A DNA stretch of 64,000 nucleotides, from the NCBI GenBank assembly GCA_905193385.1, contig CAJJOL010000009.1:18465-82464 (forward strand), in the 5' to 3' direction. Below the pieces are notes generated by a model. That model was not told where the DNA came from. It saw only the letters and a program-made list of their open reading frames with translations, and did not search any database. Both the position numbers and the translations under genes were made by a program. Source of the stretch: an uncultured Prevotella sp. Its GTDB lineage: Bacteria; Bacteroidota; Bacteroidia; Bacteroidales; Bacteroidaceae. Below are positions 46,166 to 64,000 of the stretch, one piece after another (positions within the stretch are counted from its first letter, which is position 1; every line of letters begins with the position of its first letter).

Positions 46166-46170
46166 CACTT

Positions 46171-49700: not shown

Positions 49701-50360
49701 GATGTAGATAAGGTCATTCATGATATCAATAACGATTTCCGCGAACGCAATTTTGCCGGCGTCATAAAACTCATTGCCCTTCAACCCGTTCCTTCAGCAG
49801 ACAAGATGGTGCTGCTGATGAAGCGTATAAAGGATTTTCACGACGACAACCAATACACCATGGGTGAGCTAAACCTATTCTCCTCAGCCAATCGCGACGA
49901 CGTGAACCAGAAGGCTGTAGGACACCTGCTCGATCTGATGAAGTCGCTTGTTGACAATCCGCAACGACGATACCTTGCACTCTCTGACCTATTCCTGCTG
50001 CAGTTCCGCATCGTGGAGAACGACAACGACACGGGATGGGTGGACAAGCTGTCGCATGTGGGAAGCGAGGGAACGGACACATTGGTTAAGGCAATGATAA
50101 ACATCATGCTGATAAATGTATTCAAAGGAAAGGTAAGCCGTAAGTTCGGCGACTTCCGCATACATTGCATGATGGACGAAATCGGCAAGCTGCACCCGCA
50201 GAACGTGAAAGGCATACTCGACTTTGCCAATGCCCGAAACATACTGCTCATCAACTCTTCGCCCACCACATACAACGTTTCGGACTATCGCTACACCTAT
50301 CTGCTTAGCAAGGACAGCAAGTCGCAGACCGTGGTTCATCCTTTAATATCACAACAATAA
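46713..50360 (+). CDS. jetC: Wadjet JetC-like SMC-family ATPase (MksB/MukB-like)
   Basis: N-terminal Walker A GTQGVGKST, ~900 aa of coiled-coil, C-terminal signature-like LSHVGSEGTD followed ~35 aa later by Walker B HCMMDEIG. ATGA overlap with jetB. Confidence 0.7.
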   Translation: MRALRKIIFVNSAHIRYAEVRLDGNVHFIGTQGVGKSTLLRAILFFYNADKLHLGIPKEMKSYDEFYLPHANSYIVYEVEHEHGPFCVLTFRSSGRACYRFIDAAYRKEWLIDNNGDVTADSKVIRERLGGASMSKIIDRYEQYRDILYGNRQAVGKEFARFQLMESNRYQNIPRSIQNVFLNSRLDANFIKDIIIRSMSDEEANIDLGYYRRQVADFEQEYKDISCWYKLNQKGESIVRTQAENVVKTYRELLFMKRQITELCGELKYAVRTSRERLPLVEKKIDELMEEQNRLKRLISEIQQKFDMEKSSLNQEQGVVNDRLKRLKKRKEYYSAQKIEEILNRYEQEQILRVKLDGDNARLAELTAHFNDITAKYKALYQGAKNVLENYRQSQTNRIISLGMEKQAADERMLAEHTKQREDIEVAFADKITLATNYIEQLKGEKTELEKEMLKLKYWQPYKEETDALSKETNELALREKELNGLISATEAKINQLQTEYEKNEAEIMADSKAKLDAKQHEMDEVEGKLTEIDSLLERTKGSLYEWLEANKRDWEQNIGKVINEESVLYQTGLHPQKDEGTSLFGVKLDLMDLPLAVRKPAQLKAERAELDAALRSLKAEYVGLTELQEKLQDELKRRFAPKMRELREQKSYHETELRVIPQKRKTIQLKMEDYAAKAQHEKEERNNLLNTRLQDVQIRRTAADMELAKILNDKQKQLTSEDKRHQKAKEEIIKQYEQRVAEIRSDIILQEQKTDKKLQLLQQQEHEELHGRGADTRMVEECKASIKTTETELKYIDDHRRIVFDYQRDCEELFDHEEEFKTRKKLITDQFQQLNEKYDLRKQKHNETLNLLSKELNERREEKTRIDNDLHKAERFIHDKNLCPPMLAEAQERQTLRTPGLAVDELTGIIVSRQKSQDKLKSAVNVFKGNFTAKNTFNFRMELALDEDYLDFANNLEDFLVYNKIEEFRRRTSERYVDILGRVSKEMGDLTRHESDVDKVIHDINNDFRERNFAGVIKLIALQPVPSADKMVLLMKRIKDFHDDNQYTMGELNLFSSANRDDVNQKAVGHLLDLMKSLVDNPQRRYLALSDLFLLQFRIVENDNDTGWVDKLSHVGSEGTDTLVKAMINIMLINVFKGKVSRKFGDFRIHCMMDEIGKLHPQNVKGILDFANARNILLINSSPTTYNVSDYRYTYLLSKDSKSQTVVHPLISQQ

Positions 50361-50392
50361 AACACATCAGAAACAGCTGACTATATTCGTAT

Positions 50393-51274
50393 ATGAAGAT
50401 TACGTCATCTCTTATAGACAAGCTTATCAGACTTCGCTCAGGTGAGTCACTTCCGTCCAGTGCCCTACGTGGTGAATGGGTGGAAGAACTCCTAAGCGAC
50501 GGTGTGCTTATCAGCCGTTCACACGGAAGCAGAAGCTGCATAATTGCGGCTTCTCCAGATACATTGGAAAAAAGTCTGATGCATATCAACGAACGGTTAG
50601 GCCATCTCGACAAAATGAAAGAGACTCTTGACGCGGAAACAACAAGGTCAGAACAGGCGGCAGAAACGGGTAATTCCAAACTTGTGACAGCACGCTCATG
50701 CCCAGGTTTTCCAGTCAATTCATACGAACCAATCATATGCTGTCTGAACGGTAAGGAGCTGGTGGTCAATCCACAGGAAGGCACATTCCTATTCATTGCC
50801 GATTGGCAATCATTTGCCATACCTGCCGATGTGACCGTCGTAAACATCGAGAACATGGAGAACTTCCGCCTTATACGTCGTCAGCAATCCTTGTTTGCCT
50901 CTGCATTGGCAGGCAAACAACTGCTGTTCGTGTCGCGCTATCCGCAGTCGTCCGACCTACGGACATGGTTGCAGACCATCCCTAACCAGTACGTCCACTT
51001 CGGCGATTTCGACCTCGCCGGCATCCATATCTTCCTTACAGAATTTCAAAAACACCTCGGCACACGTGCCTCTTTCCTCATTCCGCAAGACATAGAACAG
51101 CGCATAAAGCATGGTTCGGCAGAGAGATACAACGACCAATATCCAAAATTCTGCCACCTCACCTCCAATATCCCGCCACTACAGCAACTGATAGATATGC
51201 TCCACAAATATCACCGCTGCTACGACCAGGAAGGATATATAGAGAATAGTCTGACAGAACATCACATCACTTAA
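50393..51274 (+). CDS. jetD: Wadjet JetD-like Toprim nuclease (MksG/topo VI-A-like), short form
   Basis: Toprim catalytic residues VVNIENMENF (Glu) and YVHFGDFDLAGIHIF (DxD), as in Spo11/topoVI-A and JetD. Only 293 aa, shorter than typical JetD. Confidence 0.6.
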   Translation: MKITSSLIDKLIRLRSGESLPSSALRGEWVEELLSDGVLISRSHGSRSCIIAASPDTLEKSLMHINERLGHLDKMKETLDAETTRSEQAAETGNSKLVTARSCPGFPVNSYEPIICCLNGKELVVNPQEGTFLFIADWQSFAIPADVTVVNIENMENFRLIRRQQSLFASALAGKQLLFVSRYPQSSDLRTWLQTIPNQYVHFGDFDLAGIHIFLTEFQKHLGTRASFLIPQDIEQRIKHGSAERYNDQYPKFCHLTSNIPPLQQLIDMLHKYHRCYDQEGYIENSLTEHHIT

Positions 51275-51327
51275 ACATAAAAAAGCGTACAACCAAAATC
51301 ATTAAGATTTAAGTTGTACGCCTTTTG
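51271..51327. repeat. ~58-bp hairpin direct repeat, copy B (TTAAACATAAAAAAGCGTACAACC...GTTGTACGCCTTTTGT)
   Basis: Overlaps the jetD stop codon. ~6 mismatches relative to copy A at 40230. Confidence 0.8.
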
Positions 51328-51699
51328 TTATTAATTCGGATTAAGATTTACAAATTGGTCAAACTTACTTCACTTCCTCGAAATGCAAACCGTTATTAAA
51401 CAAGCCATTTGCGTGAGCGTGCTGCAAATATGGAAATAAGCAACGATAAGCAAACACGCACTCAACTGCTGCAAAGGTAGTGCAAATGAAGAGAAAAACA
51501 AAAATAAATCACATTTATTTTTATTTCCGAGGTGCAGCCTACCTTATTAAAAGGTAGTGCTTTACCACAAAAACACATGATAAAACGCCCCAAAAACTAC
51601 AAATAAAATACCTCAAAAATTATAAATGGATTACAACAAAAAATTAAAATAAAACACATCAAAAACTTAAAATACGTTTGGTAATCAAATTAAAATGAG

Positions 51700-51707
51700 T
51701 ACCTTTG
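51700..51707 (+). promoter_or_regulatory. -7 box TACCTTTG
   Basis: TAnnTTTG ~22 nt upstream of the ATG at 51729, in a very AT-rich 380-bp spacer. Confidence 0.45.
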
Positions 51708-51728
51708 CAGCATAAAACAAAATCGAAT

Positions 51729-53018
51729 ATGGCATATCTAAATAGAGTCTTTGACTTGCGACTTAAAGCGCATCTTAAAGCAATGGGAGCAGTGCTCATT
51801 GAAGGACCAAAATGGTGTGGCAAAACCACCACTGCCAAGCAATTGGCCAATAGTGTTATTAGTTTACAAGATACTGACCATCGTGAAGAATATTTGGCTA
51901 CAGCCATTACCAAGCCCTCATTCTTATTAGAAGGGGAAGTGCCTCGCTTGATAGATGAATGGCAAGATGCCCCAATGCTATGGGATGCAGTGCGCACAAA
52001 GGTTGATGAGCGTGGCTTGCCTGGTCAATTCATATTGACAGGGTCTAACGCTATTGACGACAGTAAAATCCATCATAGTGGAACAGGGCGTATTTCCCGG
52101 ATGGAGATGCTGCCCATGAGCCTGTGGGAATATGGTGAATCTAACGGCAGCGTATCATTGATGGAGATGTTCGACAATCCTCAAGAAGAAATCTTCGCTA
52201 CCTCGGAACTAAAAATGGAAGAAATCATATTTGCTGCATGCAGAGGAGGTTGGCCAGCAACATTGAATTTAGGTGACGACAAGTCAAAATTACTTGTTGC
52301 CAAAGAGTATGTAAAGTCTGTATATAAGAATGACATATCACGCATAGATGGAGTAAAGAGAAATCAGAAGTTGGCGCACCTGATAATGAAATCATACGCA
52401 CGCAACATCTCAACATTGGCGAAAACCACATCCATATTGGCAGACGTTACTGCTTCTGATGATGTAGAATGTACCAGGCCTACGCTTGAAAGCTACATCG
52501 AGGCATTGGAAAAACTGTTTGTCATTCAGGACATAGAGGCTTGGTGCCCTTCCATAAGGAGCAAGACAACAATCCAAAGCAGACCCAAACGAGCGTTCTG
52601 TGATCCATCGGTTGCAGTCGCATTACTCAACCTGTCACCAGAATCCTTAATGACTCAGTTAAAGACATTTGGCTTTATTTTTGAGCAAATGTGCGCACGA
52701 GATCTTAGGGTGTATTCAGCCTCTCACGATAGCCGCCTGTCATACTATCGCGACCGCTACGGACTGGAAGCCGACTTGGTGCTTCATCTTGACGATGGAC
52801 GCTATGCTCTGATAGAGTGCAAACTTGGCAGCCGTGAAATAGAAGAAGGAGCCAAACATCTTTTGGAAATTAAACGACTTATTCAAGTGCATAATGAAAC
52901 AGAAAAGCAGGTGACGTTGCGCGAACCCGACTTGATGATTGTCATGACAGGTGGCAGCATGGCTTACACACGCCCAGACGGAGTCAAAGTCATACCGCTT
53001 GCTTGTTTGAAAGATTAA
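51729..53018 (+). CDS. AAA+ family ATPase with DUF4143 C-terminal domain (COG1373-like)
   Basis: N-terminal MAYLNRVFDLRLKAHLKAMGAVLIEGPKWCGKTTTA (Walker A). ~430 aa. Characteristic of the Bacteroides AAA_14/DUF4143 ATPase family. Confidence 0.75.
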   Translation: MAYLNRVFDLRLKAHLKAMGAVLIEGPKWCGKTTTAKQLANSVISLQDTDHREEYLATAITKPSFLLEGEVPRLIDEWQDAPMLWDAVRTKVDERGLPGQFILTGSNAIDDSKIHHSGTGRISRMEMLPMSLWEYGESNGSVSLMEMFDNPQEEIFATSELKMEEIIFAACRGGWPATLNLGDDKSKLLVAKEYVKSVYKNDISRIDGVKRNQKLAHLIMKSYARNISTLAKTTSILADVTASDDVECTRPTLESYIEALEKLFVIQDIEAWCPSIRSKTTIQSRPKRAFCDPSVAVALLNLSPESLMTQLKTFGFIFEQMCARDLRVYSASHDSRLSYYRDRYGLEADLVLHLDDGRYALIECKLGSREIEEGAKHLLEIKRLIQVHNETEKQVTLREPDLMIVMTGGSMAYTRPDGVKVIPLACLKD

Positions 53019-53033
53019 AAAACAGAATAGAAT

Positions 53034-53717
53034 ATGGGAACAGTATTACTGGCACTCTGCTTCTGTGCGTTGTCGCTCGTCCTTGCCTTGTTTGTGGGCA
53101 TATCGCCCATAAGCGACAAGGCGAAAGTAAGGTTTATGTATGTCTGTGCTGCGCTGTCGTTGATGGCAGTGCCAATGATGAGCCATTATATTGCAGGGCT
53201 GAACGATATTGTGGACGAGCTGCGTTATCAAGCTGTGCTTGTGTTCATCGTCGTTGTGTGTTGCTATTGCTTCGTCATGGCAAATATGGTGAAGTACAAT
53301 GTCATGAAGAAAAAGGTGGCGGTGCTTGAGGACACGGTAGAGAAGCTGGAGCAAGAACGTGCGGCAGCAATGTCGCAAGCCGTGGATGAAGATCAGCAGC
53401 ACAAAGTACAAGAAGCACTCGACTGGTTTGCAGCAAAGATGAGCGTGTTCAGCAAAGAAGAGCAAGAGGCCATCAACGCTTGTGCCATTGCCTTTGCCGA
53501 GCGCGACCTGGTAGTAATACCCAAAGTCAGCATAGCCGTTAATGCCAAATGCAGCCAAGCCGACCTCATGGCGTATGCCAGTTCCACATTCTTCAAGATT
53601 GGCAAGAAGCGTAAGGATATTGCACGGTTCCTCAGCATTGTATTCGAAGCTTACTTCCCTGGTGGCGAGGGATTTGTGTATAAGAAGATGCCAGGAGCGA
53701 AAGAATGCCAGAAATAG
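53034..53717 (+). CDS. Hypothetical protein: 3 N-terminal TM helices plus cytoplasmic coiled-coil region
   Basis: Hydrophobic N-terminus (LLALCFCALSLVLALFVGI, VCAALSLMAVPMM, VLVFIVVVCCYCFVMA) then VAVLEDTVEKLEQERAAAMSQ coiled-coil. No family recognised. Confidence 0.5.
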   Translation: MGTVLLALCFCALSLVLALFVGISPISDKAKVRFMYVCAALSLMAVPMMSHYIAGLNDIVDELRYQAVLVFIVVVCCYCFVMANMVKYNVMKKKVAVLEDTVEKLEQERAAAMSQAVDEDQQHKVQEALDWFAAKMSVFSKEEQEAINACAIAFAERDLVVIPKVSIAVNAKCSQADLMAYASSTFFKIGKKRKDIARFLSIVFEAYFPGGEGFVYKKMPGAKECQK

Positions 53718-54150
53718 GTAGTTTAGGCATATTGGCTACGCCTTATTACGGCAAATTTAGCTCCAAGAAGAAAAACATAGTAAAACATTCGTTATTCTGA
53801 TTGTTTTGCGTTAACTTTGCACAGGATATCCACTTGCTGGAAGCCCAAAGGGCAAGCGGGTGGGTTTTGACTTTATGGAAATGGGCGTTTACTTAGCGCC
53901 TGTCTTTGACATGTCGTAACTTCGCAACTTACAGTAATCGTCAAAGGACGGTGGCAACCAGTAAATGCTCACGGTAAGGTATATTATACCCTGCCGTGAT
54001 TTGTCGTATATGTACTTATTGTATGTATACGGCTGCTCACGTATGGGATTAATATATACCATGCGTGGGCTTTCAGCGTTGTCCGTCTCGACGATTAGGG
54101 CAATGCGAAGGCCTCGACATGTGGGATGGGCAAAGGCGAATCCCACGCTT

Positions 54151-54158
54151 TATTTTTG
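54151..54158 (+). promoter_or_regulatory. -7 box TATTTTTG upstream of the BREX-like operon
   Basis: TAnnTTTG ~77 nt upstream of the brxP-like ATG, after a 500-bp non-coding spacer. Confidence 0.35.
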
Positions 54159-54234
54159 TAGAGGTACAGCAATTTTTTATAATTATCGTCGGAGATTGGG
54201 GTTCTATCCGCACCTAATAAGAGGTAGAGCCGAA

Positions 54235-56736
54235 ATGTACAAAATAACATGGGACAAAGAAACGGGAGGAGTACTGCTCCACTCTCGCATTGTGGAAGGT
54301 ACGTTGGGTATCTCCCCCCGTCCTGTGTTCTTTGAGGAGCTGGACTTGTTGGGGCTTGATAAACTTGGATGGACTTATCCTCATGTGGAAGAGCCGATTA
54401 TGTGGGCTGTCAACAAGCAGTATTGGTATAGGGGAGTGAGGCTCTTTGATGCCAAGGGCGCCAATATATACACCAAACCTACACTGGAGATACAACCTGG
54501 TATAGAACCAATGGAGTTGGTGCCTGTTGACGTGAAGAAGATGCTTCAGCGTACATCTGATTTGATGTTCGTATTGGAGAATGAAGCCATAGAATTTATC
54601 CGTGACACTTATTTGGCGTATGCCAAAGCAAATAAAACCTACAACAAGGCTGATGCCAACAAACTGGACTTCGAGACGATGGCAGAGCGCGTGGAAAAGA
54701 AGAGCAAGCAACACATGGCTGTGGTTAAACAGGATTGTGACTCGTTCGATATCATGCCTCTTGCTACGGCAGAAAAAGAAGGCAAGCGTGTGCTGCTATC
54801 TACCAAAATAGACCGCTTTATAGCAAGTTTCTCTGGTGGTAAGGATTCGCAAGTGGTACTCGACTTGTGTACACGTGCCATTCCTCCTACAGACTTTGAG
54901 GTCATTTATAGCGACACCGGCTATGAACTGCCTCCTTCTCTCGCTCTTTACAAAGACGTGGAGGCGTACTATAAAAAGAAGTTTCCTTCACTCCGTTTCC
55001 TTACAGCCAGCAACCACGAGTCGGTACTGAGCTATTGGGACAAGATTGGCACACCAAGTGACAATCACCGTTGGTGCTGCTCGGTGATGAAGACGGCACC
55101 GTTGTACCGAATGTTGAAAGTTGAAGGCAACAAGCAAGCACGTGTTCTGACATTCGACGGAGTGAGAGCGGAGGAGTCTGTAAGGAGAAGTGGATATAAT
55201 CGAATTGGAAAAGGTGTTAAACATTCGACTGTTATCAATGCAAGTCCAATATTATCTTGGTCTTCTGTTGAAGTATTTTTGTATTTGTTCCGCTATGGCT
55301 TCCCAATTAATATTGCATACAGACGTGGTATAACAAGAGTTGGATGTATTATTTGTCCTTTTTCCTCTGAATGGAATGACATGGTGGTTAATCAAACTTT
55401 TCATGAAAAACTTGAGCCCTTTTTGTCACGAATTGAAGACAATGTAAAACGTAACAAGGTACAGGATTTTAGAAATTATATTGAAGATGGAAACTGGAAA
55501 CGACGAGCCGGCGGTCGTGACATTCATTCTTCCTCAGCTATTGACTTTCTGTCTTCAAAGCCAGACTTGAATGTCATGTTGATCAAACCACAGAAGCATC
55601 CTTTAACATGGATTAGCGCTATTGCTCCATTTACAGGTTCTGAAAAACAAGGAGAACTCAAATACAGGAATGAAGTATACTCATACAAGTGTGAAAATAA
55701 TGGTGATGTTTATAGTCTGTCTTTCAAAAATACAGCAAAAAGTTTAGCGTTGCAAGGATTGATAAAAAGGGCTTTGAATAAGGCCACATTTTGCATAAAT
55801 TGTGAAGCTTGTGAAGTAGAATGTCCGACAGGTGCATTATCTATTTTACCAAAAGCCGAAATAGACACTAATAAATGTATCCATTGTGGGAAATGCCTAA
55901 ATTTCCATGAAACTGGATGTATTGTAGCTCATTCATTAAAAATAACAGAAACACCAAAGAGTAAAATGAAACTGATTAGTTATAATAATTTTGGATTACG
56001 TGAAGAATGGTTAGACTACTATATGTCTAATCATGACGATTATTTTCAGACAACAAATCATGGACTAAATGTCAAGGAGCAGTTGCCAAGTTTTGTAAAA
56101 TGGCTTGTTCAGGCAGAAATTCTTTCTGATACAAAGAAAAGAGAAATTACCCCATTTGGAAAGTTGCTTATCGAAATATATGAGAACAATCCAAGTTTAG
56201 TATGGCAAATTATTTGGATAAACTTGACGTACAATTCTCCTATAGCACATTGGTATTCGCAGAATGTTTCTTTCGGAAGCAATTTCACTGATGCTGATTT
56301 GAGAGAAGGGGTAAAGAATGATTATTCCAGTGACAGCACAACAACGATAAAGAATGTTGTGTATGCTCTCACTCGTACATTTAAGGAGAGTCCTATAGGT
56401 GAGGAACTTGGTCAAATGACTAAAGTTGATAAGAACACATATACTCGATCTGGATTTTCAGATATTGAGGTGGAAGCAGTCGCATATTCATTATACAAAT
56501 ATGCACAGATAAAGGAAAGCAACTTGATGAGAGTTTCCGACTTTTACAAAGCTGATGAAAAGGACGGAATATATAAGGAATTTGGTATTTCAAAAAGTGA
56601 TTTGGAAAAGAAATTGCGTTTTCTTTCTTCTGATAGTCACAGAGTATTGGTGGCAGAACTAAATATGGGTTTGGATCATATTACACTAAGAGATGATTTA
56701 ACTCCTGAAAAAGCTTTAGAGACATTAGCGAAATGA
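54235..56736 (+). CDS. brxP: BrxP-like protein: PAPS-reductase/PP-loop ATP-pyrophosphatase domain plus 4Fe-4S ferredoxin-type Cys cluster
   Basis: PP-loop FSGGKDSQVVLDLC and DTGYELPPSL of the PAPS_reduct family (as in DndC/SspD/BrxP). CINCEACEVECPTG...CIHCGKCLNFHETGC dicluster motif. 834 aa. First gene of a brxP-brxC-pglZ-brxL-order operon. Confidence 0.6.
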   Translation: MYKITWDKETGGVLLHSRIVEGTLGISPRPVFFEELDLLGLDKLGWTYPHVEEPIMWAVNKQYWYRGVRLFDAKGANIYTKPTLEIQPGIEPMELVPVDVKKMLQRTSDLMFVLENEAIEFIRDTYLAYAKANKTYNKADANKLDFETMAERVEKKSKQHMAVVKQDCDSFDIMPLATAEKEGKRVLLSTKIDRFIASFSGGKDSQVVLDLCTRAIPPTDFEVIYSDTGYELPPSLALYKDVEAYYKKKFPSLRFLTASNHESVLSYWDKIGTPSDNHRWCCSVMKTAPLYRMLKVEGNKQARVLTFDGVRAEESVRRSGYNRIGKGVKHSTVINASPILSWSSVEVFLYLFRYGFPINIAYRRGITRVGCIICPFSSEWNDMVVNQTFHEKLEPFLSRIEDNVKRNKVQDFRNYIEDGNWKRRAGGRDIHSSSAIDFLSSKPDLNVMLIKPQKHPLTWISAIAPFTGSEKQGELKYRNEVYSYKCENNGDVYSLSFKNTAKSLALQGLIKRALNKATFCINCEACEVECPTGALSILPKAEIDTNKCIHCGKCLNFHETGCIVAHSLKITETPKSKMKLISYNNFGLREEWLDYYMSNHDDYFQTTNHGLNVKEQLPSFVKWLVQAEILSDTKKREITPFGKLLIEIYENNPSLVWQIIWINLTYNSPIAHWYSQNVSFGSNFTDADLREGVKNDYSSDSTTTIKNVVYALTRTFKESPIGEELGQMTKVDKNTYTRSGFSDIEVEAVAYSLYKYAQIKESNLMRVSDFYKADEKDGIYKEFGISKSDLEKKLRFLSSDSHRVLVAELNMGLDHITLRDDLTPEKALETLAK

Positions 56737-57185
56737 AAGCATTACTTGTTACATACACAGATATGATTCTTTCTTTAACATTGGGTAATTATAGAGGATG
56801 GATTTCGTTATCAAAGCCACTATACCTTTTGTCTTTGATTGAATGTGTCAAGTATGGTAAGTTATGCTGTAATAAATTTAGCTTAGATGATGTTTACTTA
56901 CAACAAATGTTTTTCTCACAATATGAGAAGGTCTATGGTGAGAAAAAATGTTGCTTGTCAACATTTCTTAAACCATTTTATCATCTTGCAAGTTCTCCAT
57001 TCTATCATTTAATATGGAAGCGTGACTTTGAATCTCCGAGTATGTCATCCTCTCCTTCTGCCAAATACCTCCGCGAGAATCTTCTCTATGCAAAATTGGA
57101 CGATGAGCTATGGGAGCTATTACAAGACGCAGAGAACAGGGATTATATCAAACAGAACATCATCAGTCGATACCTGACAAAATAA
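56733..57185 (+). CDS. Hypothetical 150-aa protein inserted between the brxP-like and brxC-like genes
   Basis: ATGA-overlapped start with the brxP-like gene. AT-rich codon usage like its neighbours. No motif recognised. Confidence 0.45.
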   Translation: MKALLVTYTDMILSLTLGNYRGWISLSKPLYLLSLIECVKYGKLCCNKFSLDDVYLQQMFFSQYEKVYGEKKCCLSTFLKPFYHLASSPFYHLIWKRDFESPSMSSSPSAKYLRENLLYAKLDDELWELLQDAENRDYIKQNIISRYLTK

Positions 57186-57209
57186 CTATAACAAACCAAT
57201 CATACACTT

Positions 57210-60200
57210 ATGGCAACTAAGTATGACGATATAATAAAGCTTCGTGGTGGCAAAGCCGCTTACGACATAGCAGAAGAAAAAAAGGGTGAATGGGTTTCGT
57301 TCATCCCCAATGAACAATTTAACAACGTGTTGCGTACGGTCATAAAGAGTGTGCGTGGAAACGACATTGACAACCACAAGAGTTTTTGGATAAACGGAAC
57401 ATACGGCACTGGCAAGAGCCATGCCGTAGCAGTTGTCAGTCACTTGCTGGGTGATGCCGTGGAAGACATACGCCAGTGGGTGGACTACGAGTATAAGGAC
57501 GCAAAGTTTGCCACACTCCGTCAAGCCATTTATTCACTTCGCGAGACGAAGCGTTTGCTCACGGTCAATGTTTATGGACTGGGAGCAATGACACATCCCG
57601 GAGACTTGGCTCTTGTGTTGCAGAAGGCGGTAACAGAAACGCTCCGCAAGTACAAGATAGAGATAGCTGTGCCGACGGATTATGAAAACTACATTGAGCA
57701 AATACACCAGAACCCGGAAATATGGAATCATCTGATAGATACTCATACAGCTCTGTCGTCTGTTGTTGCCGACAGTGATCAACTGGCAGAAAGCCTGAAG
57801 ACCGGCGACCTTGGTATATTCCACCGCGTGAGCGACACGCTGCGTGAGGCACAACTCGATATACGCCTTAACAACGACAATATCAAGCAATGGCTTTGTG
57901 AGGTGCAAGACCGTCTGACAGAGTTGGGAACGTATAACGGTTTGCTGATTGTTTGGGACGAGTTTACCGACGTTATGACCGACGCCATTGGTGTACCCGT
58001 GTTGAAACAATTGCAAGAGGTGGCTCAGAAGTTCATGAATGAGGACTGTAATTCCTACCTGTTCCTTATCTCGCATCCGTCTGCATTCAACGGCATCGAC
58101 TCCGAACAACTGAAGCAGACCGATGGGCGATACCACCGCATGAAGTACAACATGGAATCTGTATCGGCATTCAAGATTATGTCGCGCAAGTTTGAAATCA
58201 TTGATGAGGAGCGCCATGCCCAGATGTGCCAGCAGTTCTACACGATGAATCCGCAACTGCTTGACATCTTTACAGCCACCAGCAACGACCAGCAGTCCAC
58301 CCGTGAAGACCTATTTAATCTCTATCCCCTGCATCCGGGTACAGCTAACCTAGCCACTCACTACGCTACTGTGGTAGGCTCATCGAGCCGAAGCGTATTC
58401 GAGTTTTTGGGACAGAATGATTCCATCCGCGATTTTCTTGACAGCGAGGAGAGTTTCTTGAACCGTGACACCATCACGGCAGACTATCTGTGGGACTATG
58501 TATTGAAGGTGTTCCAAGACGATGTGACCAACTATGGAGCCGTAACGGAACGCTACAACTCATACAAACTACAGGTCAGCAATGAAGGTGCAGCCTATTT
58601 TGCTGTATTTAAGGGAATATTGTTGCTCAACGCCTTCAACAATGTGTCGGGAGAGAACAACAACGGACTGGTAACACCATCGGAGGACAACATACATGCC
58701 CTGTTTGCTGGAACACGTTATGACAGTGAGGTGGACACAGTACTACAGTGGTTCAATGAACAAGGCATCATACAACGTGCGCCAGGCGGATTGTACTCAG
58801 TACAGTTCTCTGCCCTGCCTTCAGGTGAGATAGAAGAAAAGAAAACAGAGATGCGCAATGTGCAGTATCGCTTTACGGAGCAGATACTTAATTTCTCAGA
58901 TGCAGCCAGCACGGCTTTTGAGAAAAAGATGATGCAGAAAGTGATACGCCCATATGGATTCAAGTTTTTCTCCGACCATCAGAACGAAGCCGTGCTCAGA
59001 AGCCAAATTAAGAATGCACGAAAGGATACGAAGACGAGCACCATGTTCTTCGCTCTGCTGATGGCAAGAAACAACGCTGAACTTGGCGTGCTGCGCAGTT
59101 TTGCAGAGAAATGTGCCGAAGACGAGAACGACAAAGACCTGAAGAATATTGTGTATCTTGTGTTTGACGAGGTGTTTACCGATGCTAAGTATGAGCAGTT
59201 TATAGAATATCAAGCCAACTATGCATGTGCCAGCAGCCATGGCTTCCTCGATCAGCAGAAAGTACACCGCGACCATGCGGTGTCGATGGTAAAAGAGTGG
59301 ATGGATAGCGTGCAGCGTGGCAATGCCATTGTGTATATAAATGGTGAAGATAAACAGCCCATTTCCGTTAAGCATCTTTCAAGCATTGTCAACAGTGTGA
59401 TATCTCCGACCATATTTCCATATGGTCCGGATGCTTGTGAATTGTTACGTCAAAAAGCACCGTCAACATTCTGGCGCCAACAGAACTCGAAAGAGATTGT
59501 GCGTACATTCATATTTGCTACTTCAAAGGAAGAACTGGCAACCATAACCGCTCAGATGCGCCCTATACAATATCTTGTACAAGAGTGCTTGGACGACAAC
59601 ATGGAGTGGAAGGGCGATGTGCCAGAGAACCATCCGTTCAAGGTTGTATATGACAAGGTACAGAGTATCATCAAGTATGCAGACAAGAGCCTGCCATTCA
59701 ACTTTGATGATAAATTTTCTGTTCTGCAGAAGCCCCCATACGGCTTATACGGTAGTTTTGCTCCAATGGCAATGATGGCTTTTGCCCTGAAGTCTTGGGC
59801 AAACAAAATATTCGATATGCAGGGCAAGCCACGCGACAAGAATGCATTAATTGACGATATCGTATGGCTGTTCAAGGTGTGGGATGACAAAAAATCGAAC
59901 AGTAAGCTGAACTTCAAGTTCCAAACACCCGAAGAAGGCAAACTGTGCAAAGACCTCATATCGCTTTTCAAGCTGAACAACAAGAACAATGACTATTCGG
60001 ATGTGACCAGTCTGAAAGATGCCCGTTACGCCATAACATCAGAGTTTCTTGGCAAGAAAGGATATCCGCTGTGGACGGTGAAATACGCCTCGGAAGCTGC
60101 TTTTGCCAGTTTGCCAGTCATGCTGAACATTACGGATGAAGAGTGCAGACTGATAGACAATATCGTCACCATCTGTATGGAACGCGACCTGCGGAATCCA

Positions 60201-60695
60201 GCGTTGGTAAAGGATACTATAGACCTCATCTCTGAACTGAGGTTCGAAATGAAGAACATCCTCAATGTGGATGCAGCCTTCTCTGATGGCTTTAAGAATT
60301 ATCTGATGCAGCTTGACTTCATCAACATACAAGAAGATGAAGTGGATGACGTGAAGCACTTCATCGAGCAGAATCTACAATCAACAGTAGGTTATTGGAC
60401 TGAAGAAGAGGTGGAGAAGAAGGCATTACAATGGAATTCTGCAAGAAGTTCATCTGCAAATGGTCAGCAAAAAACAAATGGCAATGGTTGGCAACAAAGC
60501 AACGACATAGTTTCCGAACCGCCTACCAATAATACTGTACAAACATCCTATACGGATTCTAACGCATTGGAGGAGAAGCGCAAGCAAGCAAAAAAGCACA
60601 TTTCAAGCATTGTTTCCCTTGATGATGCAAAGGCTCTGCTGACCCGACTGTGTGACGAATGTGGAGAGTGGCTGTTGGACAAGATAAACGGTTAA
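57210..60695 (+). CDS. brxC: BrxC/PglY-like large P-loop ATPase (DUF499-type)
   Basis: 1161 aa with N-terminal Walker A WINGTYGTGKSHAV, the GKSH P-loop seen in BrxC. Size and position in the operon match BrxC. Confidence 0.6.
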   Translation: MATKYDDIIKLRGGKAAYDIAEEKKGEWVSFIPNEQFNNVLRTVIKSVRGNDIDNHKSFWINGTYGTGKSHAVAVVSHLLGDAVEDIRQWVDYEYKDAKFATLRQAIYSLRETKRLLTVNVYGLGAMTHPGDLALVLQKAVTETLRKYKIEIAVPTDYENYIEQIHQNPEIWNHLIDTHTALSSVVADSDQLAESLKTGDLGIFHRVSDTLREAQLDIRLNNDNIKQWLCEVQDRLTELGTYNGLLIVWDEFTDVMTDAIGVPVLKQLQEVAQKFMNEDCNSYLFLISHPSAFNGIDSEQLKQTDGRYHRMKYNMESVSAFKIMSRKFEIIDEERHAQMCQQFYTMNPQLLDIFTATSNDQQSTREDLFNLYPLHPGTANLATHYATVVGSSSRSVFEFLGQNDSIRDFLDSEESFLNRDTITADYLWDYVLKVFQDDVTNYGAVTERYNSYKLQVSNEGAAYFAVFKGILLLNAFNNVSGENNNGLVTPSEDNIHALFAGTRYDSEVDTVLQWFNEQGIIQRAPGGLYSVQFSALPSGEIEEKKTEMRNVQYRFTEQILNFSDAASTAFEKKMMQKVIRPYGFKFFSDHQNEAVLRSQIKNARKDTKTSTMFFALLMARNNAELGVLRSFAEKCAEDENDKDLKNIVYLVFDEVFTDAKYEQFIEYQANYACASSHGFLDQQKVHRDHAVSMVKEWMDSVQRGNAIVYINGEDKQPISVKHLSSIVNSVISPTIFPYGPDACELLRQKAPSTFWRQQNSKEIVRTFIFATSKEELATITAQMRPIQYLVQECLDDNMEWKGDVPENHPFKVVYDKVQSIIKYADKSLPFNFDDKFSVLQKPPYGLYGSFAPMAMMAFALKSWANKIFDMQGKPRDKNALIDDIVWLFKVWDDKKSNSKLNFKFQTPEEGKLCKDLISLFKLNNKNNDYSDVTSLKDARYAITSEFLGKKGYPLWTVKYASEAAFASLPVMLNITDEECRLIDNIVTICMERDLRNPALVKDTIDLISELRFEMKNILNVDAAFSDGFKNYLMQLDFINIQEDEVDDVKHFIEQNLQSTVGYWTEEEVEKKALQWNSARSSSANGQQKTNGNGWQQSNDIVSEPPTNNTVQTSYTDSNALEEKRKQAKKHISSIVSLDDAKALLTRLCDECGEWLLDKING

Positions 60696-60699
60696 ATCT

Positions 60700-63117
60700 A
60701 TGTATAAGGAGTTTGGTACATTGGAAGACCTCTGTCATGAAATAGAGGTCGACAAACATTGGACGGGAGCGGAGAGCAGTCTCCGCAACCGCTATCCAAT
60801 ACGTTTTGTATTGTTTGAGAATTTTGGCGACTTTGGCGATTTCGTGCAAGTGTGCCAAGACCATGACGTGTATGTGCAAAGCATAGAAAAATGGATGAAA
60901 GACGGACAGGACGACAAACTTATCACCTATTCGCAACTTGCCGCATTATTCGAGGCTTACATTAAAAGTCTGCCTGCAAACGATTTCGTCATCGCGCCAT
61001 TTTCGGAGATAACAAGATTCTATGACAATGCACATTACGCTGAGTTTGATTCGTTGCTGAAGACAATACGTCTTATCCAATCACCGGAAGAAGCCCAACA
61101 TGATCACCAGCGTATATACGTGCCTGTCATCGGTATGCAGAGCAAGGTGAGCAAATTCAAGGACGATCCAAATATCCACATATGGGAATACCGCTCTGGG
61201 ACAGAGTATGACAACTATCACCTGATTCTTACGAAGGGAACAACATACGGTGTGAAAGGACTTGAAGAACATTATACGCTGTGTGAAGACCTACGCCATT
61301 GGATTGCCCTTTGGAAAAATGTGGGTGCCAAGATAAAGCCGCAGATTATTTGTACATCAAAGTGTATTTTCGCCAACAGTAATAATGCCCAGCCAGACAA
61401 TGCCTTCAAGTATACGATTTGCAACAATGCGTTTGAATTCTTGACCAAAGGACTCTGTATTGATTTTGGCAAATTGAATGCAAGAGAAGAAGATATGCCG
61501 TATTGGGAAGAACTGGCTTCCAATATTGATGTGGCAGATTTTGATTTTGACGCTTTTGTCAATCAACGGTTCAATACATCAAGTTTGAATGAAGAGAATG
61601 CCTTTGTGCAGACATGGTTTGAATATAGGGATGAGTTTTCACGCTGGCTGCTGAAAACTTATTTTGTATGGAAAACAGAGGAATGCAATTATCTCATTAG
61701 GGTCTTGGAGAACGTTGCCTCTTTGGGCTCGTCAGATTTGTTCTCACAAATAGCTACCCAAATCTTTGAAGAGTCTCTTGACGAGACCAGTATTAGCCAA
61801 CGTTTGGCTCTGCTTAGAGAAGCAAAAAGACAGCATGTGCAGATAACGAGTTTGGCAGAACAAAAGGTTAAGGCAAAGTTGTCGGCAATGGCTGCTGATC
61901 CAGAACGTGGGCCATTGTTTGCGATGAAATATATGTCACCACTCACTTTGTCAGAACAATGTCTTATGACGGAATGGGTTGGTCACGGAAAGATAGAAAA
62001 GAACTATATAAAGATTCTTTTCCCTGAATTGTATGCCTATTTGTTGCCTTCAAGTGTGCAAACAGAGAAAGTCAATGGTTGGATAAATGAATATTTCCAG
62101 GAATATTGTCTTTCAAAAGTGGGAAATAGTCAAACAGAAAACCTGACAAACAAGCTCAAGGAACTTAATGCTTCACAAGTCAGTTTTGAGACATGGCGCA
62201 ATGGTTTCAAGACTGTAAAGACATTCATGCACAACAGGCAGGATATTGACATTTACTATTGGATAGATGGGCTTGGTGTAGATTGGATTCCATTCATAAC
62301 ACGAGTTATTGAAAAACACAAGGCAGATGGAGTGTTCTTGAATGAAATTTATGTCGCAGCTTCAGAATTGCCTACAGTCACTTCCGTAAACAAGACGAAG
62401 TTGGATGAGATGGCAGATGGCAAACTGGTGAAAATCGGAGATGTTGATAAGTTTGCACATACGCCGAAAAAATATCCTGCATACCTTATTGAGGAGTTTC
62501 GAATTGTAGAAGATGCCATTTCGAAAGTTCTCTCGCTGTACAATGGCAAGAAGATAGCATTTGTCTCTGATCATGGAGTCAGCTATATGGCACAGTTCGG
62601 AGCAGGACTTAACCTCGCAGGCGTGGAGACAGATCATGCTGGACGTTGTGGACATTGGCTCAAAGGGTCTGCTCCGGCAGATAATAACTATGTTGTTTTG
62701 GATGATGGCCAGACTCTGTGTTCATTGAATAACAACTCTCTTTCCACCAAAACGCCAGTGGGACAGGGTGCTCATGGAGGCGCAACACCTGAAGAGGTAC
62801 TTGTACCTATCATAATTGTTTCCAGTCAAAAAAATGCAAATGTATATTCTGCGAAATTGCAGTCAAACGAAATTGTTGCAAGTAGCCCCATAGTAAGATA
62901 TACGATAAAGGGAATCAGCAGCATAGACACTCCATATGTAACATACAATGGTGTTGACTATGAGCTTCACAATATGGATGGAGATGTTTATGAGAGTGAA
63001 CGATTGAATCTCGTCAGCACTTCAACAAGAATAATCCTACATATAGGAGAATTTAAGCAAACAGACAATCTGAGCATCAACACTGGTGTTCAGGAAGACG
63101 ACTTATTCGGATTTTAA
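60700..63117 (+). CDS. pglZ: PglZ-like alkaline-phosphatase-superfamily protein
   Basis: 805 aa. C-terminal half carries AP-superfamily metal-ligand motifs YYWIDGLGVDWIPF and IAFVSDHGVSY. Position between the brxC-like and brxL-like genes. Confidence 0.55.
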   Translation: MYKEFGTLEDLCHEIEVDKHWTGAESSLRNRYPIRFVLFENFGDFGDFVQVCQDHDVYVQSIEKWMKDGQDDKLITYSQLAALFEAYIKSLPANDFVIAPFSEITRFYDNAHYAEFDSLLKTIRLIQSPEEAQHDHQRIYVPVIGMQSKVSKFKDDPNIHIWEYRSGTEYDNYHLILTKGTTYGVKGLEEHYTLCEDLRHWIALWKNVGAKIKPQIICTSKCIFANSNNAQPDNAFKYTICNNAFEFLTKGLCIDFGKLNAREEDMPYWEELASNIDVADFDFDAFVNQRFNTSSLNEENAFVQTWFEYRDEFSRWLLKTYFVWKTEECNYLIRVLENVASLGSSDLFSQIATQIFEESLDETSISQRLALLREAKRQHVQITSLAEQKVKAKLSAMAADPERGPLFAMKYMSPLTLSEQCLMTEWVGHGKIEKNYIKILFPELYAYLLPSSVQTEKVNGWINEYFQEYCLSKVGNSQTENLTNKLKELNASQVSFETWRNGFKTVKTFMHNRQDIDIYYWIDGLGVDWIPFITRVIEKHKADGVFLNEIYVAASELPTVTSVNKTKLDEMADGKLVKIGDVDKFAHTPKKYPAYLIEEFRIVEDAISKVLSLYNGKKIAFVSDHGVSYMAQFGAGLNLAGVETDHAGRCGHWLKGSAPADNNYVVLDDGQTLCSLNNNSLSTKTPVGQGAHGGATPEEVLVPIIIVSSQKNANVYSAKLQSNEIVASSPIVRYTIKGISSIDTPYVTYNGVDYELHNMDGDVYESERLNLVSTSTRIILHIGEFKQTDNLSINTGVQEDDLFGF

Positions 63118-63120
63118 ATT

Positions 63121-64000
63121 ATGCAAGCAACTATCACACAAAAGATTCGGGAGCAGTTCTCCTCGATGGCTATATATAAAGACCCTGCATCAACCAACAG
63201 CTTGTTTGCCGGGCGAAACCTTCCGTCATTTGTAAAAGACTTTATTCTAAAGCGGTTTATCAATGCGGATGGAAATGTCAACCGTGCTGAGTTGACAAAC
63301 TTCCTTGATATGGTCATACCGCAAAAGCAGACAGAGGTAAAAGACCGTTTGGCTTCTGGTGAGGAACTTACTTTGCTCACACGTTTCATCATCTACATAG
63401 ACTTGGTGAAAGGTGTGCGCAGATTCGGAATCCCTGATCTTGGCATCAAAATAAATGAAGGACAAATACCTGAGTACGTTTACAAAAATCATCAAGGCGA
63501 ACTCGTTGATGGTGAGAAATGGGGAATTATAAAACTTTCTGTACTTCCTGATGAAGATGGAAAGAAAAATCATGTTGAGATGGTTGATTACAAACCATTC
63601 AAGCCTTACCGCAGTGTTGACATTAATTACTTGCGAAACGCTCGTGCAGTTTTCTCAACGGAGGAGTGGATAGATGTGCTTTTGTCGTCTATGGAATATG
63701 AAGCTGATGGTTTTGAGACAATGACACAGAAAATGGAGTTCTTGACACGTCTTCTTATTTTTGTCGAGCCTCGATTGAATGTTATAGAACTTGCTCCAAA
63801 AGGAACGGGTAAGTCATTTGTGTTTGGAAACCTCTCAAAGTATGGATGGCTTGTGAGTGGTGGTAAAGTTACACGTGCCAAACTTTTCTATGATAAGGCA
63901 AAGCAACAGAATGGTATTATCAAGAACCATGATTTCACTGCCTTTGACGAGATTCAGACCATTATATTCCAGGAGCCAGCAGAAATACAGGCTGCTCTCA
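63121..64000 (+). CDS. brxL: BrxL-like Lon-related ATPase/protease, N-terminal ~293 aa (3' end outside window)
   Basis: Open frame to the window end (not in the ORF table because no stop is reached). N-terminal ...SLFAGRNLPSFVKDFIL resembles the BrxL AFAGKVVRKDL start. Walker A IELAPKGTGKS. Confidence 0.55.
   Translation, partial: MQATITQKIREQFSSMAIYKDPASTNSLFAGRNLPSFVKDFILKRFINADGNVNRAELTNFLDMVIPQKQTEVKDRLASGEELTLLTRFIIYIDLVKGVRRFGIPDLGIKINEGQIPEYVYKNHQGELVDGEKWGIIKLSVLPDEDGKKNHVEMVDYKPFKPYRSVDINYLRNARAVFSTEEWIDVLLSSMEYEADGFETMTQKMEFLTRLLIFVEPRLNVIELAPKGTGKSFVFGNLSKYGWLVSGGKVTRAKLFYDKAKQQNGIIKNHDFTAFDEIQTIIFQEPAEIQAAL

What the first reader, a model, noticed from the sequence alone, without database searches (positions are those of the whole stretch)
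54151..64000. Type-4-like BREX operon (brxP-brxC-pglZ-brxL order) with an extra unknown ORF and an Fe-S-containing BrxP
The genes run in the type 4 BREX order. A PAPS-reductase/PP-loop protein (FSGGKDS) comes first. A GKSH-type 1161-aa P-loop ATPase follows. An 805-aa protein with alkaline-phosphatase-superfamily motifs (DGLG...SDHG) sits in the PglZ position. A Lon-like ATPase with Walker A APKGTGKS comes last, cut by the window edge. Two things stand out. The BrxP-like protein is long at 834 aa and carries a 2x[4Fe-4S] ferredoxin-type cysteine motif, hinting at redox- or sulfur-chemistry-linked DNA modification. A 150-aa ORF of unknown function is wedged between brxP and brxC with an ATGA overlap. 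The whole block is markedly more AT-rich than the upstream housekeeping genes, consistent with horizontal acquisition. The type 4 BREX mechanism is essentially uncharacterised.
Basis: partly seen in the sequence, partly recalled or inferred. Interest (0 to 1): 0.75.

Follow-up and report, generated by a model that had tools for sequence, protein, structure and literature searches.

The report
Phosphorothioate-type (type 4) BREX defence operon

Summary
Window 54235-64000 (+) carries a tightly packed operon, brxP-sbd-brxC-pglZ-brxL, and every core gene matches type 4 BREX models strongly.

Neither stand-out feature is unusual.
- **Fe-S motif and length of BrxP.** All eight ferredoxin cysteines are invariant in 81 of 81 BrxP sequences from 80 species. 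About 830 aa is the standard length, because BrxP is an SspD-SspB fusion. Both points are published (PMC12839542, PMC12914056).
- **The 150-aa ORF.** It is a stand-alone phosphorothioate-DNA sulfur-binding domain (SBD). The profile hits PDB 8H0L at E=1.8e-17, and the AF2 model matches it with TM 0.78. It has no nuclease domain. The same ORF sits in the same gap in 49 of 78 related loci. It is probably the gene called "mcrA" in the studied Bacteroides salyersiae system.

"Mechanism uncharacterised" is outdated: brxP and brxC make phosphorothioate DNA (PMC12914056). BrxL here is the short 479-aa form without a Lon protease domain.

A possible lead: the C-terminal half of BrxP, and here the first half of the SBD gene, form a hypervariable segment exchanged between otherwise near-identical operons. 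This could be a specificity cassette.

Verdict: a new member of a known kind, of low to moderate interest.

The parts
53718..54234 (+). Intergenic leader and presumed promoter region upstream of brxP
   Evidence: No credible ORF. The brxP family model begins at 54235, and gene callers on identical contigs start there. The sigma-70 scan is no better than shuffles; Bacteroidota promoters are not covered by that tool. No Rfam hit.
54235..56736 (+). brxP: 833-aa sulfur-inserting enzyme, an SspD-SspB-like fusion
   Evidence: PADLOC BrxP PDLC02510 scores 881 bits over model positions 1-775 of 779. Pfam PAPS_reduct E=1.8e-29. A 100%-identical protein is in public data with 483 member sequences.
54832..54849 (+). 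PP-loop ATP-binding motif SGGKDS (BrxP aa 200-205)
   Evidence: Read from the translation. These residues are invariant in alignment A2.
55375..55764 (+). Hypervariable middle domain of BrxP (aa 381-510)
   Evidence: Only 21-26% identical in loci whose BrxP N-terminus is 92-97% identical. Nucleotide similarity to L014, L022, L030 and L020 stops at 55253-55438. The AF2 model is beta-rich with pLDDT 75-90 over aa 430-510. PMC12839542 calls it a Mog1p/PsbP-like alpha+beta domain.
55792..55920 (+). 2x[4Fe-4S] ferredoxin-type cysteine motif (BrxP Cys 520, 523, 526, 530, 548, 551, 554, 562)
   Evidence: Pfam Fer4 and Fer4_6 E=2.9e-7. All eight Cys are conserved in 81 of 81 BrxP sequences.
55960..56736 (+). 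SspB-like / DUF4007 (BrxA-like) DNA-binding C-terminal region of BrxP (aa ~576-833)
   Evidence: PADLOC BrxP PDLC02511 matches this region. The AF2 model has pLDDT 85-94 here. Foldseek top hits are SspB crystal structures 6LB9 and 6JUF, E=5e-7, about 306 aligned columns.
   Evidence: The profile of 30 homologues hits PDB 8H0L SBDHga at E=1.8e-17. AF2 pLDDT is 90.8. Foldseek gives 8H0L TM 0.78, then the ScoMcrA and SprMcrA SBDs. K28, P81 and H84 align with pocket residues K26, P76 and H79 of SBDHga and are invariant. dN/dS is 0.16-0.28. The ATGA overlap with brxP is confirmed.
57210..60695 (+). brxC: 1161-aa SspC-like P-loop ATPase (Walker A GTYGTGKS at 57396-57419)
   Evidence: PADLOC BrxC PDLC02490 scores 1031 bits over model positions 3-1110 of 1133. 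Weaker SspC hits reach E=2e-20.
60700..63117 (+). pglZ: 805-aa type-4 PglZ (alkaline-phosphatase superfamily)
   Evidence: NCBIfam NF033445 BREX_PglZ_4 scores 761 bits against a cut-off of 140. PADLOC PglZ scores 673 bits.
63121..64000 (+). brxL, first 293 codons (cut by the window end); short BrxL form
   Evidence: Pfam BrxL_N 87.7 bits and BrxL_ATPase 187 bits. PADLOC BrxL PDLC02505 scores 418 bits. The full-length protein in L002 (96% identical) is 479 aa with no Lon protease domain, and the operon ends there.

Best explanation
This is a type 4 (phosphorothioate-based) BREX defence operon, brxP-sbd-brxC-pglZ-brxL, in a gut Prevotella genome.

**Step 1, writing the mark.** This is shown for a homologous system in Bacteroides salyersiae (PMC12914056) and inferred here by homology. 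BrxP and BrxC replace a non-bridging phosphate oxygen of host DNA with sulfur at short motifs. BrxP combines a PP-loop ATP-pyrophosphatase / PAPS-reductase domain, a variable alpha+beta domain, a 2x[4Fe-4S] ferredoxin module and an SspB-like DNA-binding domain. BrxC is an SspC-like ATPase. The sulfur would come from a housekeeping cysteine desulfurase, because none is encoded in the operon. I infer that the invariant Cys281-Cys282 and Cys371/Cys374 relay sulfur or bind a cluster, and that the ferredoxin module supplies electrons.

**Step 2, reading the mark.** This rests on structure and sequence only. The 150-aa product of the gene wedged between brxP and brxC is a nuclease-free sulfur-binding domain that keeps the sulfur pocket (Lys28, Pro81, His84). 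It would bind phosphorothioate sites. In B. salyersiae the gene at this position ('mcrA') is dispensable for making the mark. I infer that it reports the self mark to the effector half, or tunes modification density.

**Step 3, exclusion.** This is inferred from BREX type 1. PglZ and the short MCM-like ATPase BrxL act on unmarked incoming DNA to block phage replication.
For: - All four core genes match type-4-specific or BREX models at very high scores, in the canonical order, with 3-24 nt gaps or overlaps and no methyltransferase.
- The BrxP C-terminus matches SspB crystal structures.
- SBD identity rests on several independent lines: the PDB profile hit, the fold match, a weak Pfam PF26340 DNA-SBD_ScoMcrA hit on homologue P0120, conserved pocket residues and purifying selection.
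- The SBD ORF is in the same gap in 49 of 78 species-level loci. All three sampled family members lie in BREX-4 operons.
- The operon ends after a 479-aa BrxL in near-identical contigs.
- Literature: PT synthesis by brxP and brxC, with mcrA, brxZ and brxL dispensable for PT, and CpsC found in a Prevotella isolate with brx genes (PMC12914056). The conserved Fe-S region and the DUF4007 fusion are in PMC12839542.
Against: - Nothing here measures PT in this organism or phage resistance. Anti-phage activity of these gut type-4 variants "awaits investigation" (PMC12914056).
- The SBD role in discrimination is inference only. 37% of related operons lack it, so it cannot be essential to the core mechanism.
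- I could not confirm by sequence that the B. salyersiae 'mcrA' belongs to this SBD family; no supplement text is held.
- The window protein itself does not reach any Pfam threshold.
- Two of the five SBDHga pocket residues differ (H25 to S27, L75 to K80).
- The BrxP AF2 model is poor over the PAPS-reductase and Fe-S parts (pLDDT below 50), so cluster binding is supported by motif only.
- brxL is truncated by the window.
Confidence: 0.85

Rival explanations
1. The operon is mainly an epigenetic DNA-marking system (phosphorothioation for redox or gene-regulation purposes). PglZ and BrxL would be dispensable or decaying, rather than forming an active phage-exclusion system.
For: PT synthesis needs only brxP and brxC, and phage defence by these gut variants is unproven (PMC12914056). 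Two metagenome contigs 99.5% identical to the window (L001, L003) have pglZ called as two genes (163 and 621 aa) and a 1-nt deletion in brxL, while brxP, sbd and brxC are 100% identical at the protein level. L088 also has a split brxL.
Against: In the window, pglZ is intact and brxL is open for all 293 codons present. pglZ and brxL are retained in nearly all of the 80 species loci wherever the contig is long enough. The operon sits next to other candidate defence genes and moves between genomic contexts.
Confidence: 0.1
2. The 150-aa ORF is a McrA-type PT-dependent restriction endonuclease, as the label 'mcrA ... restriction' in PMC12914056 implies, or the decayed remnant of one.
For: ScoMcrA, SprMcrA and Hga carry the same domain fused to HNH or PD-(D/E)XK nucleases, and 94% of catalogued SBD homologues have an HNH domain (PMC10602919). 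JGI annotates some relatives as 'putative restriction endonuclease'.
Against: No nuclease family is hit. The family is uniformly about 140-160 aa across species and is under purifying selection with dN/dS 0.16-0.28, so it is not a decaying fragment. A PT-dependent nuclease would also attack its own PT-marked host DNA.
Confidence: 0.04
3. The locus is an Ssp-type (SspABCD-SspE) or Dnd-type phosphorothioation system rather than BREX.
For: BrxP also hits SspD (62 bits) and DndC (28 bits). BrxC hits SspC (70 bits). The BrxP C-terminus resembles SspB.
Against: The BREX models score 10-15 times higher. A type-4-specific PglZ and a BrxL follow directly. There is no SspE, DndD/E or DndFGH in the operon or downstream in near-identical contigs.
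Confidence: 0.02

Closest known systems
BREX type 4 brxPCZL system of Bacteroides salyersiae DSM 18765 (Yuan et al., Nat Commun 2026, PMC12914056)
   Same: Same gene set and order, with a small gene between brxP and brxC (there 'mcrA', HMPREF1532_02792). Both are Bacteroidales gut hosts. The BrxP = SspD-SspB fusion and the BrxC = SspC homology were confirmed here.
   Different: B. salyersiae has a 7-gene operon with an extra unknown gene after brxL. In contigs near-identical to the window the operon ends at brxL. The sequence relationship of its 'mcrA' to this ORF was not tested. The PT motif of this Prevotella variant is unknown.
Type 4 BREX as catalogued by Goldfarb et al. 2015 and by the 2026 NAR survey (PMC12839542)
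   Same: PAPS-reductase fused to DUF4007. The alpha+beta domain is followed by a conserved 4Fe-4S-like Cys region. PglZ and BrxL are present and there is no methyltransferase.
   Different: No operon-encoded cysteine desulfurase; the survey finds one in 56% of taxa. The survey does not describe the nuclease-free SBD gene as a component.
Sulfur-binding domains of PT-dependent type IV restriction enzymes (SBDHga 8H0L; ScoMcrA 5ZMO; SprMcrA 7CC9)
   Same: Same fold (TM 0.64-0.78). The central proline, histidine and lysine of the sulfur pocket are conserved.
   Different: It stands alone, with no HNH, PD-(D/E)XK, SRA or kinase partner domain. It is encoded inside a PT-writing operon rather than as a solitary enzyme against PT-modified invaders. 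Identity to 8H0L is only about 24-25%.
SspABCD-SspE system
   Same: Homologous writer proteins (SspD, SspB, SspC) plus a separate protein that senses PT to control defence. SspE senses host PT (PMC9646914, abstract as listed).
   Different: The putative effectors are PglZ and BrxL.

Membership tests
BREX type 4 | BrxP: PAPS-reductase / PP-loop protein in place of the PglX methyltransferase | tested here: met
   PADLOC BrxP 881 bits, full-length. Pfam PAPS_reduct E=1.8e-29. SGGKDS is invariant. No methyltransferase ORF in the operon.
BREX type 4 | BrxC/PglY large P-loop ATPase | tested here: met
   PADLOC PDLC02490 scores 1031 bits over 1108 model positions. The type-1-based NCBIfam BREX_BrxC model fails (16 bits against a cut-off of 400) and Pfam gives nothing, as expected for the SspC-like type-4 clade.
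BREX type 4 | PglZ of the type-4 clade | tested here: met
   NF033445 BREX_PglZ_4 scores 761 bits against a cut-off of 140. Pfam PglZ PF08665 is not hit.
BREX type 4 | BrxL present downstream of PglZ | tested here: met
   BrxL_N and BrxL_ATPase are hit. TIGR02688 scores 245 bits, below its 329 cut-off, only because 293 of 479 residues lie in the window. The full 479-aa protein in L002 has both domains and no Lon protease domain.
BREX type 4 | Phosphorothioate modification of host DNA that depends on brxP and brxC | not testable with these tools
   Shown for B. salyersiae only (PMC12914056). Needs LC-MS/MS or PT-seq of this strain.
BREX type 4 | Exclusion of phage | not testable with these tools
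   Not yet demonstrated for gut type-4 variants, according to PMC12914056.
DNA sulfur-binding domain (SBD; Pfam PF26340 DNA-SBD_ScoMcrA) | SBD fold | tested here: met
   AF2 pLDDT 90.8. Foldseek ranks 1-14 are all chains of entries containing an SBD (8H0L, 5ZMO, 5ZMN, 5ZMM, 7CCD, 7CC9, 7CCJ), with TMq 0.64-0.78.
DNA sulfur-binding domain (SBD; Pfam PF26340 DNA-SBD_ScoMcrA) | Sequence membership | tested here: inconclusive
   The family profile hits SBDHga at E=1.8e-17. A homologue at 55% identity has a weak precomputed PF26340 hit. The window protein and all 30 aligned members do not reach PF26340 in hmmscan.
DNA sulfur-binding domain (SBD; Pfam PF26340 DNA-SBD_ScoMcrA) | Hydrophobic sulfur pocket around a central proline | tested here: met
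   SBDHga pocket residues H25, K26, L75, P76 and H79 (PMC10602919) align with S27, K28, K80, P81 and H84. K28, P81 and H84 are invariant in 30 homologues.
DNA sulfur-binding domain (SBD; Pfam PF26340 DNA-SBD_ScoMcrA) | Preferential binding of PT-DNA | not testable with these tools
   Needs EMSA with PT and non-PT oligonucleotides.
McrA-type PT-dependent restriction endonuclease | Nuclease domain (HNH or PD-(D/E)XK) fused to the SBD | tested here: not met
   The 150 aa are fully covered by the SBD fold. There are no nuclease hits in Pfam, NCBIfam or PADLOC. It should therefore not be filed as McrA.
Ssp system | Separate SspB plus an SspE PT-sensing effector | tested here: not met
   The SspB-like domain is fused to BrxP. 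No SspE-like gene lies in the operon or downstream in near-identical contigs.

The most novel reading that the evidence does not exclude
The C-terminal half of BrxP (variable alpha+beta domain plus SspB-like DNA-binding domain, aa ~380-833) is a swappable target-specificity cassette, analogous to the recognition-domain shuffling of type I/III restriction-modification enzymes. It would set which short motif gets phosphorothioated. The adjacent nuclease-free SBD would be the dedicated reader that tells PglZ/BrxL which DNA is self. Together they would give type 4 BREX a separable write/read pair whose specificity could be predicted and re-engineered from sequence.
Probability: 0.3. Interest if true: 0.55.

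Novelty: new member of a known kind. Interest (0 to 1): 0.27.

Why it matters
As a finding it mostly confirms published work. Gut Bacteroidales carry type 4 BREX operons that write phosphorothioate into DNA, with a conserved Fe-S module in BrxP.

Two points could still be useful to specialists.
1. The gene labelled 'mcrA / restriction' in the only genetic study is, in this family, a nuclease-free PT reader. It is kept under purifying selection in about 60% of related operons. That changes what experiment to do with it: test binding and signalling, not cleavage.
2. A sharply bounded hypervariable segment of brxP is exchanged between otherwise 83-94%-identical operons. It is a concrete candidate for the unknown determinant of PT motif choice. 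The published brxC/sspC swap experiments yielded no PT and so left motif determination unresolved.

Tried and rejected
Nothing was hit for BrxC, PglZ or the 150-aa ORF at E<=0.01. A Pfam scan of all 30 SBD homologues gave only noise. Identification needed PADLOC, NCBIfam and a PDB profile search.
- **BrxP-SBD fusions.** I looked among long SBD-containing proteins for these as proof of coupling. The long ones are sigma-70, MTaX1 or helicase fusions instead. Rejected.
- **Co-variation of the SBD with the variable half of BrxP.** Across 43 operons (the window plus 42 loci), SBD distances track BrxC, PglZ and the BrxP N-terminus (rho 0.56-0.64) more than the BrxP middle (0.08) or C-terminus (0.34). 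A general 'SBD co-evolves with the BrxP C-terminus' claim is therefore not supported, although in this operon the 5' half of sbd lies inside the swapped segment.
- **Phase-variation or shufflon repeats in or around the operon.** Only short chance-level repeats were found.
- **Promoter and terminator scan.** Counts are at shuffle level.
- **Rfam.** No hits.
- **tRNA genes as integration sites.** None in the window.
- **Full-length BrxP AF2 model from 15 sequences.** Poor overall (pLDDT 65.7). The PAPS-reductase and Fe-S parts are unusable; only the C-terminal SspB-like match was used.
- **Supplementary data of PMC12914056**, sought to check the B. salyersiae 'mcrA' sequence, are not held.


Full report
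**Observation.** The + strand of 53965-64000 holds five consecutive ORFs.
- The first ORF is open from 53965, but the BrxP family model begins at its residue 91. Gene callers on identical public contigs start there too. brxP is therefore 54235-56736, 833 aa.
- A 150-aa ORF at 56733-57185 overlaps the brxP stop as ATGA.
- brxC is 57210-60695 (1161 aa) and pglZ is 60700-63117 (805 aa).
- brxL starts at 63121 and is cut after 293 codons.

**Identity of the core genes.**
- PADLOC gives BrxP 881 bits (full-length), BrxC 1031 bits, PglZ 673 bits and BrxL 418 bits.
- NCBIfam's type-4-specific PglZ model scores 761 bits against a cut-off of 140.
- Pfam finds PAPS_reduct, Fer4, BrxL_N and BrxL_ATPase. 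It finds nothing for BrxC, PglZ or the small ORF.
- Weaker hits to SspD, DndC and SspC reflect known homology, not a different system.
- No methyltransferase is present.
- Contigs 95-99.5% identical to the window continue past its end. BrxL is 479 aa with BrxL_N and BrxL_ATPase only and no Lon protease domain. The next genes are unrelated and mostly on the other strand, so the operon ends at brxL.

**Are the two stand-out features unusual? No.**
- BrxP has 2579 detectable homologues. Of the best 120, all but three (529-787 aa) are 820-897 aa, and most have Fer4 hits.
- In an alignment of the window protein with BrxP from 80 species-level genomes, all eight ferredoxin cysteines (520, 523, 526, 530, 548, 551, 554, 562) are conserved in 81 of 81 sequences. 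So are Cys168, Cys281-282, Cys371 and Cys374.
- The extra length is the C-terminal SspB-like / DUF4007 region. That part of the AF2 model is confident, and its best PDB matches are SspB structures 6LB9 and 6JUF at E=5e-7.
- Both features are in print. [quoted passage not shown] PMC12914056 calls BrxP an SspD-SspB fusion.

**The 150-aa ORF.**
- It has 199 close homologues of about 140-160 aa and 23 invariant columns among 30 sequences at about 50% identity.
- A profile of these hits one solved structure convincingly: 8H0L, the sulfur-binding domain of the PT-dependent nuclease Hga, at E=1.8e-17.
- The AF2 model (pLDDT 90.8) matches 8H0L with TM 0.78. It then matches only the SBDs of ScoMcrA and SprMcrA before scores collapse.
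- The SBDHga sulfur pocket is H25, K26, L75, P76 and H79 (PMC10602919). In the HMMER alignment these correspond to S27, K28, K80, P81 and H84. The central proline, the histidine and the lysine are invariant in the family.
- One homologue carries a weak Pfam PF26340 DNA-SBD_ScoMcrA hit.
- The fold uses the whole protein, so there is no room for a nuclease, and none is detected.
- dN/dS against relatives is 0.16-0.28, so the gene is maintained.

**How common is the SBD gene?**
- 78 species-level loci hold both brxP and brxC. Of these, 49 have this ORF in the gap, 27 have brxP abutting brxC, and 2 carry a different 1.4-kb insert.
- Three sampled family members, including a distant 143-aa one, all sit in the same gap of BREX-4 operons.
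- A library-wide profile search finds 1239 representatives. The best-scoring matches are mostly stand-alone proteins of about 140-150 aa.
- In the only genetically studied system, a gene called 'mcrA' lies between brxP and brxC and is not needed for PT synthesis (PMC12914056).
- I infer that this 'mcrA' is the same family. I could not check the sequence.

**Mechanism.**
- Shown elsewhere: brxP and brxC, together with a host cysteine desulfurase, suffice to put PT into DNA. brxZ, brxL and mcrA are dispensable for that step. Different type-4 systems give different dinucleotide contexts, including CpsC in a Prevotella isolate (PMC12914056).
- Inferred here by homology: this operon does the same, using a housekeeping desulfurase, because none is encoded nearby.
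- Inferred from structure: the SBD binds the PT mark.
- Inferred by analogy with BREX type 1 and with Ssp, where SspE senses host PT: PglZ and BrxL act on unmarked DNA, and the SBD helps tell self from non-self or tunes modification.
- Because 37% of related operons lack the SBD, it is an accessory and not a core part.

**Context.**
- The organism is a Prevotella. The small protein's 90%-identity cluster (representative 98% identical) includes WP_297241764.1 from an uncultured Prevotella sp., seen on 190 contigs. L007, from an uncultured Prevotella sp., is 97% identical in BrxP.
- Upstream lie a divergent Wadjet/Mks-like four-gene cluster and a PDC-S01-type AAA_14/DUF4143 ATPase, so this looks like a defence island.
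- The same operon occurs in other flanks, once beside relaxase, MobC and primase genes, which supports mobility.
- GC is 0.423 in the operon against 0.511 in the first 33 kb, but it is uneven inside the operon.

**A lead beyond the finding.**
- Compared with L014, L022, L030 and L020, nucleotide identity is 83-94% from about 53.0-53.8 kb (depending on the locus) to 55.25-55.44 kb, and again from 56.97-57.19 kb to the window end. There is essentially no blastn match in between; L020 alone has one 229-nt, 69% match.
- That block encodes BrxP aa ~380-833 and, here, the first half of the SBD. It is also the GC minimum of the window, 0.358.
- Where the BrxP N-terminus is 92-97% identical, the middle domain is 21-26% identical and the SspB-like domain 42-49%.
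- Middle and C-terminal distances co-vary (rho 0.55) but are decoupled from the rest of the operon. The SBD tracks the backbone more than the cassette.
- This looks like modular exchange of the DNA-recognition half of BrxP. It is a candidate for the unknown determinant of PT motif choice, but it is untested.

**Verdict.** The claimed oddities are ordinary and already described. This is a new member of a known kind, with a modest refinement (a nuclease-free PT reader) and one testable lead (a specificity cassette).

Noticed in passing
window 55253-57190: A sharply bounded hypervariable block inside the operon, covering BrxP aa ~380-833 plus the 5' half of sbd. It has no nucleotide match to operons that are 83-94% identical on both sides, apart from one 229-nt, 69% match in L020. 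It is also the lowest-GC stretch of the window (0.358). It looks like recombinational exchange of the DNA-recognition half of BrxP.
   Followed up: partly
L001 and L003 (99.5% identical to window 46744-64000); change at window 63500: Two metagenome contigs carry the same operon with pglZ called as two genes (163 and 621 aa) and a 1-nt deletion in brxL at window position 63500. brxP, sbd and brxC are 100% identical at the protein level. L088 also has a split brxL. This suggests natural loss of the effector half while the PT-writing half is kept, or shared assembly errors.
   Followed up: partly
window 44951-51274 (+): A four-gene cluster resembling a divergent Wadjet/Mks system: a 404-aa ORF with no hits, a 184-aa ORF with a faint MksE hit, a 1227-aa DUF3584 protein (Pfam 221 bits, but only a weak JetC hit) and a 293-aa DUF7281 protein with weak JetD hits.
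   Followed up: partly
window 51705-53717 (+): An AAA_14/DUF4143 ATPase (PADLOC candidate system PDC-S01, 220 bits) followed by a 227-aa ORF with no hits. A diverged copy of this gene pair (about 75% nucleotide identity) lies downstream of the BREX operon in L002, and the pair is absent from the flanks shown for L004, so it appears to move relative to BREX.
   Followed up: partly
L007 8892-9458 (-), L024 8894-9433 (-), L044 136-681 (-): A second, longer (180-189 aa) SBD-like ORF (76-82 bits to the SBD profile) lies on the opposite strand about 0.5 kb upstream of brxP in three related loci. It has no Pfam hit and is absent from the window.
   Followed up: partly
proteins P0346, P0316, P0342, P0334, P0373: Distant members of this SBD family are fused to the C-terminal side of sigma-70 regions 2 and 4, in proteins of 820-1020 aa. 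Others are fused to MTaX1 or UvrD-like helicase domains. This hints at transcription factors targeted to phosphorothioate DNA.
   Followed up: no
L025 12512-13909 and L067 (same gap): In two species the brxP-brxC gap holds a different 1.4-kb insert, seen in L025 as two ORFs of 243 and 189 aa. From memory these look like a split AlbA_2/HTH-type regulator; this was not tested. The junction therefore seems to be a hot spot for accessory genes.
   Followed up: no
window 33000-54234: GC drops to 0.463, from 0.511 in the first 33 kb, well before the BREX operon. This stretch also includes CbiK, a TonB-dependent receptor and a PepSY_TM protein. The low-GC region is therefore larger than the BREX block and is not all defence genes.
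   Followed up: no
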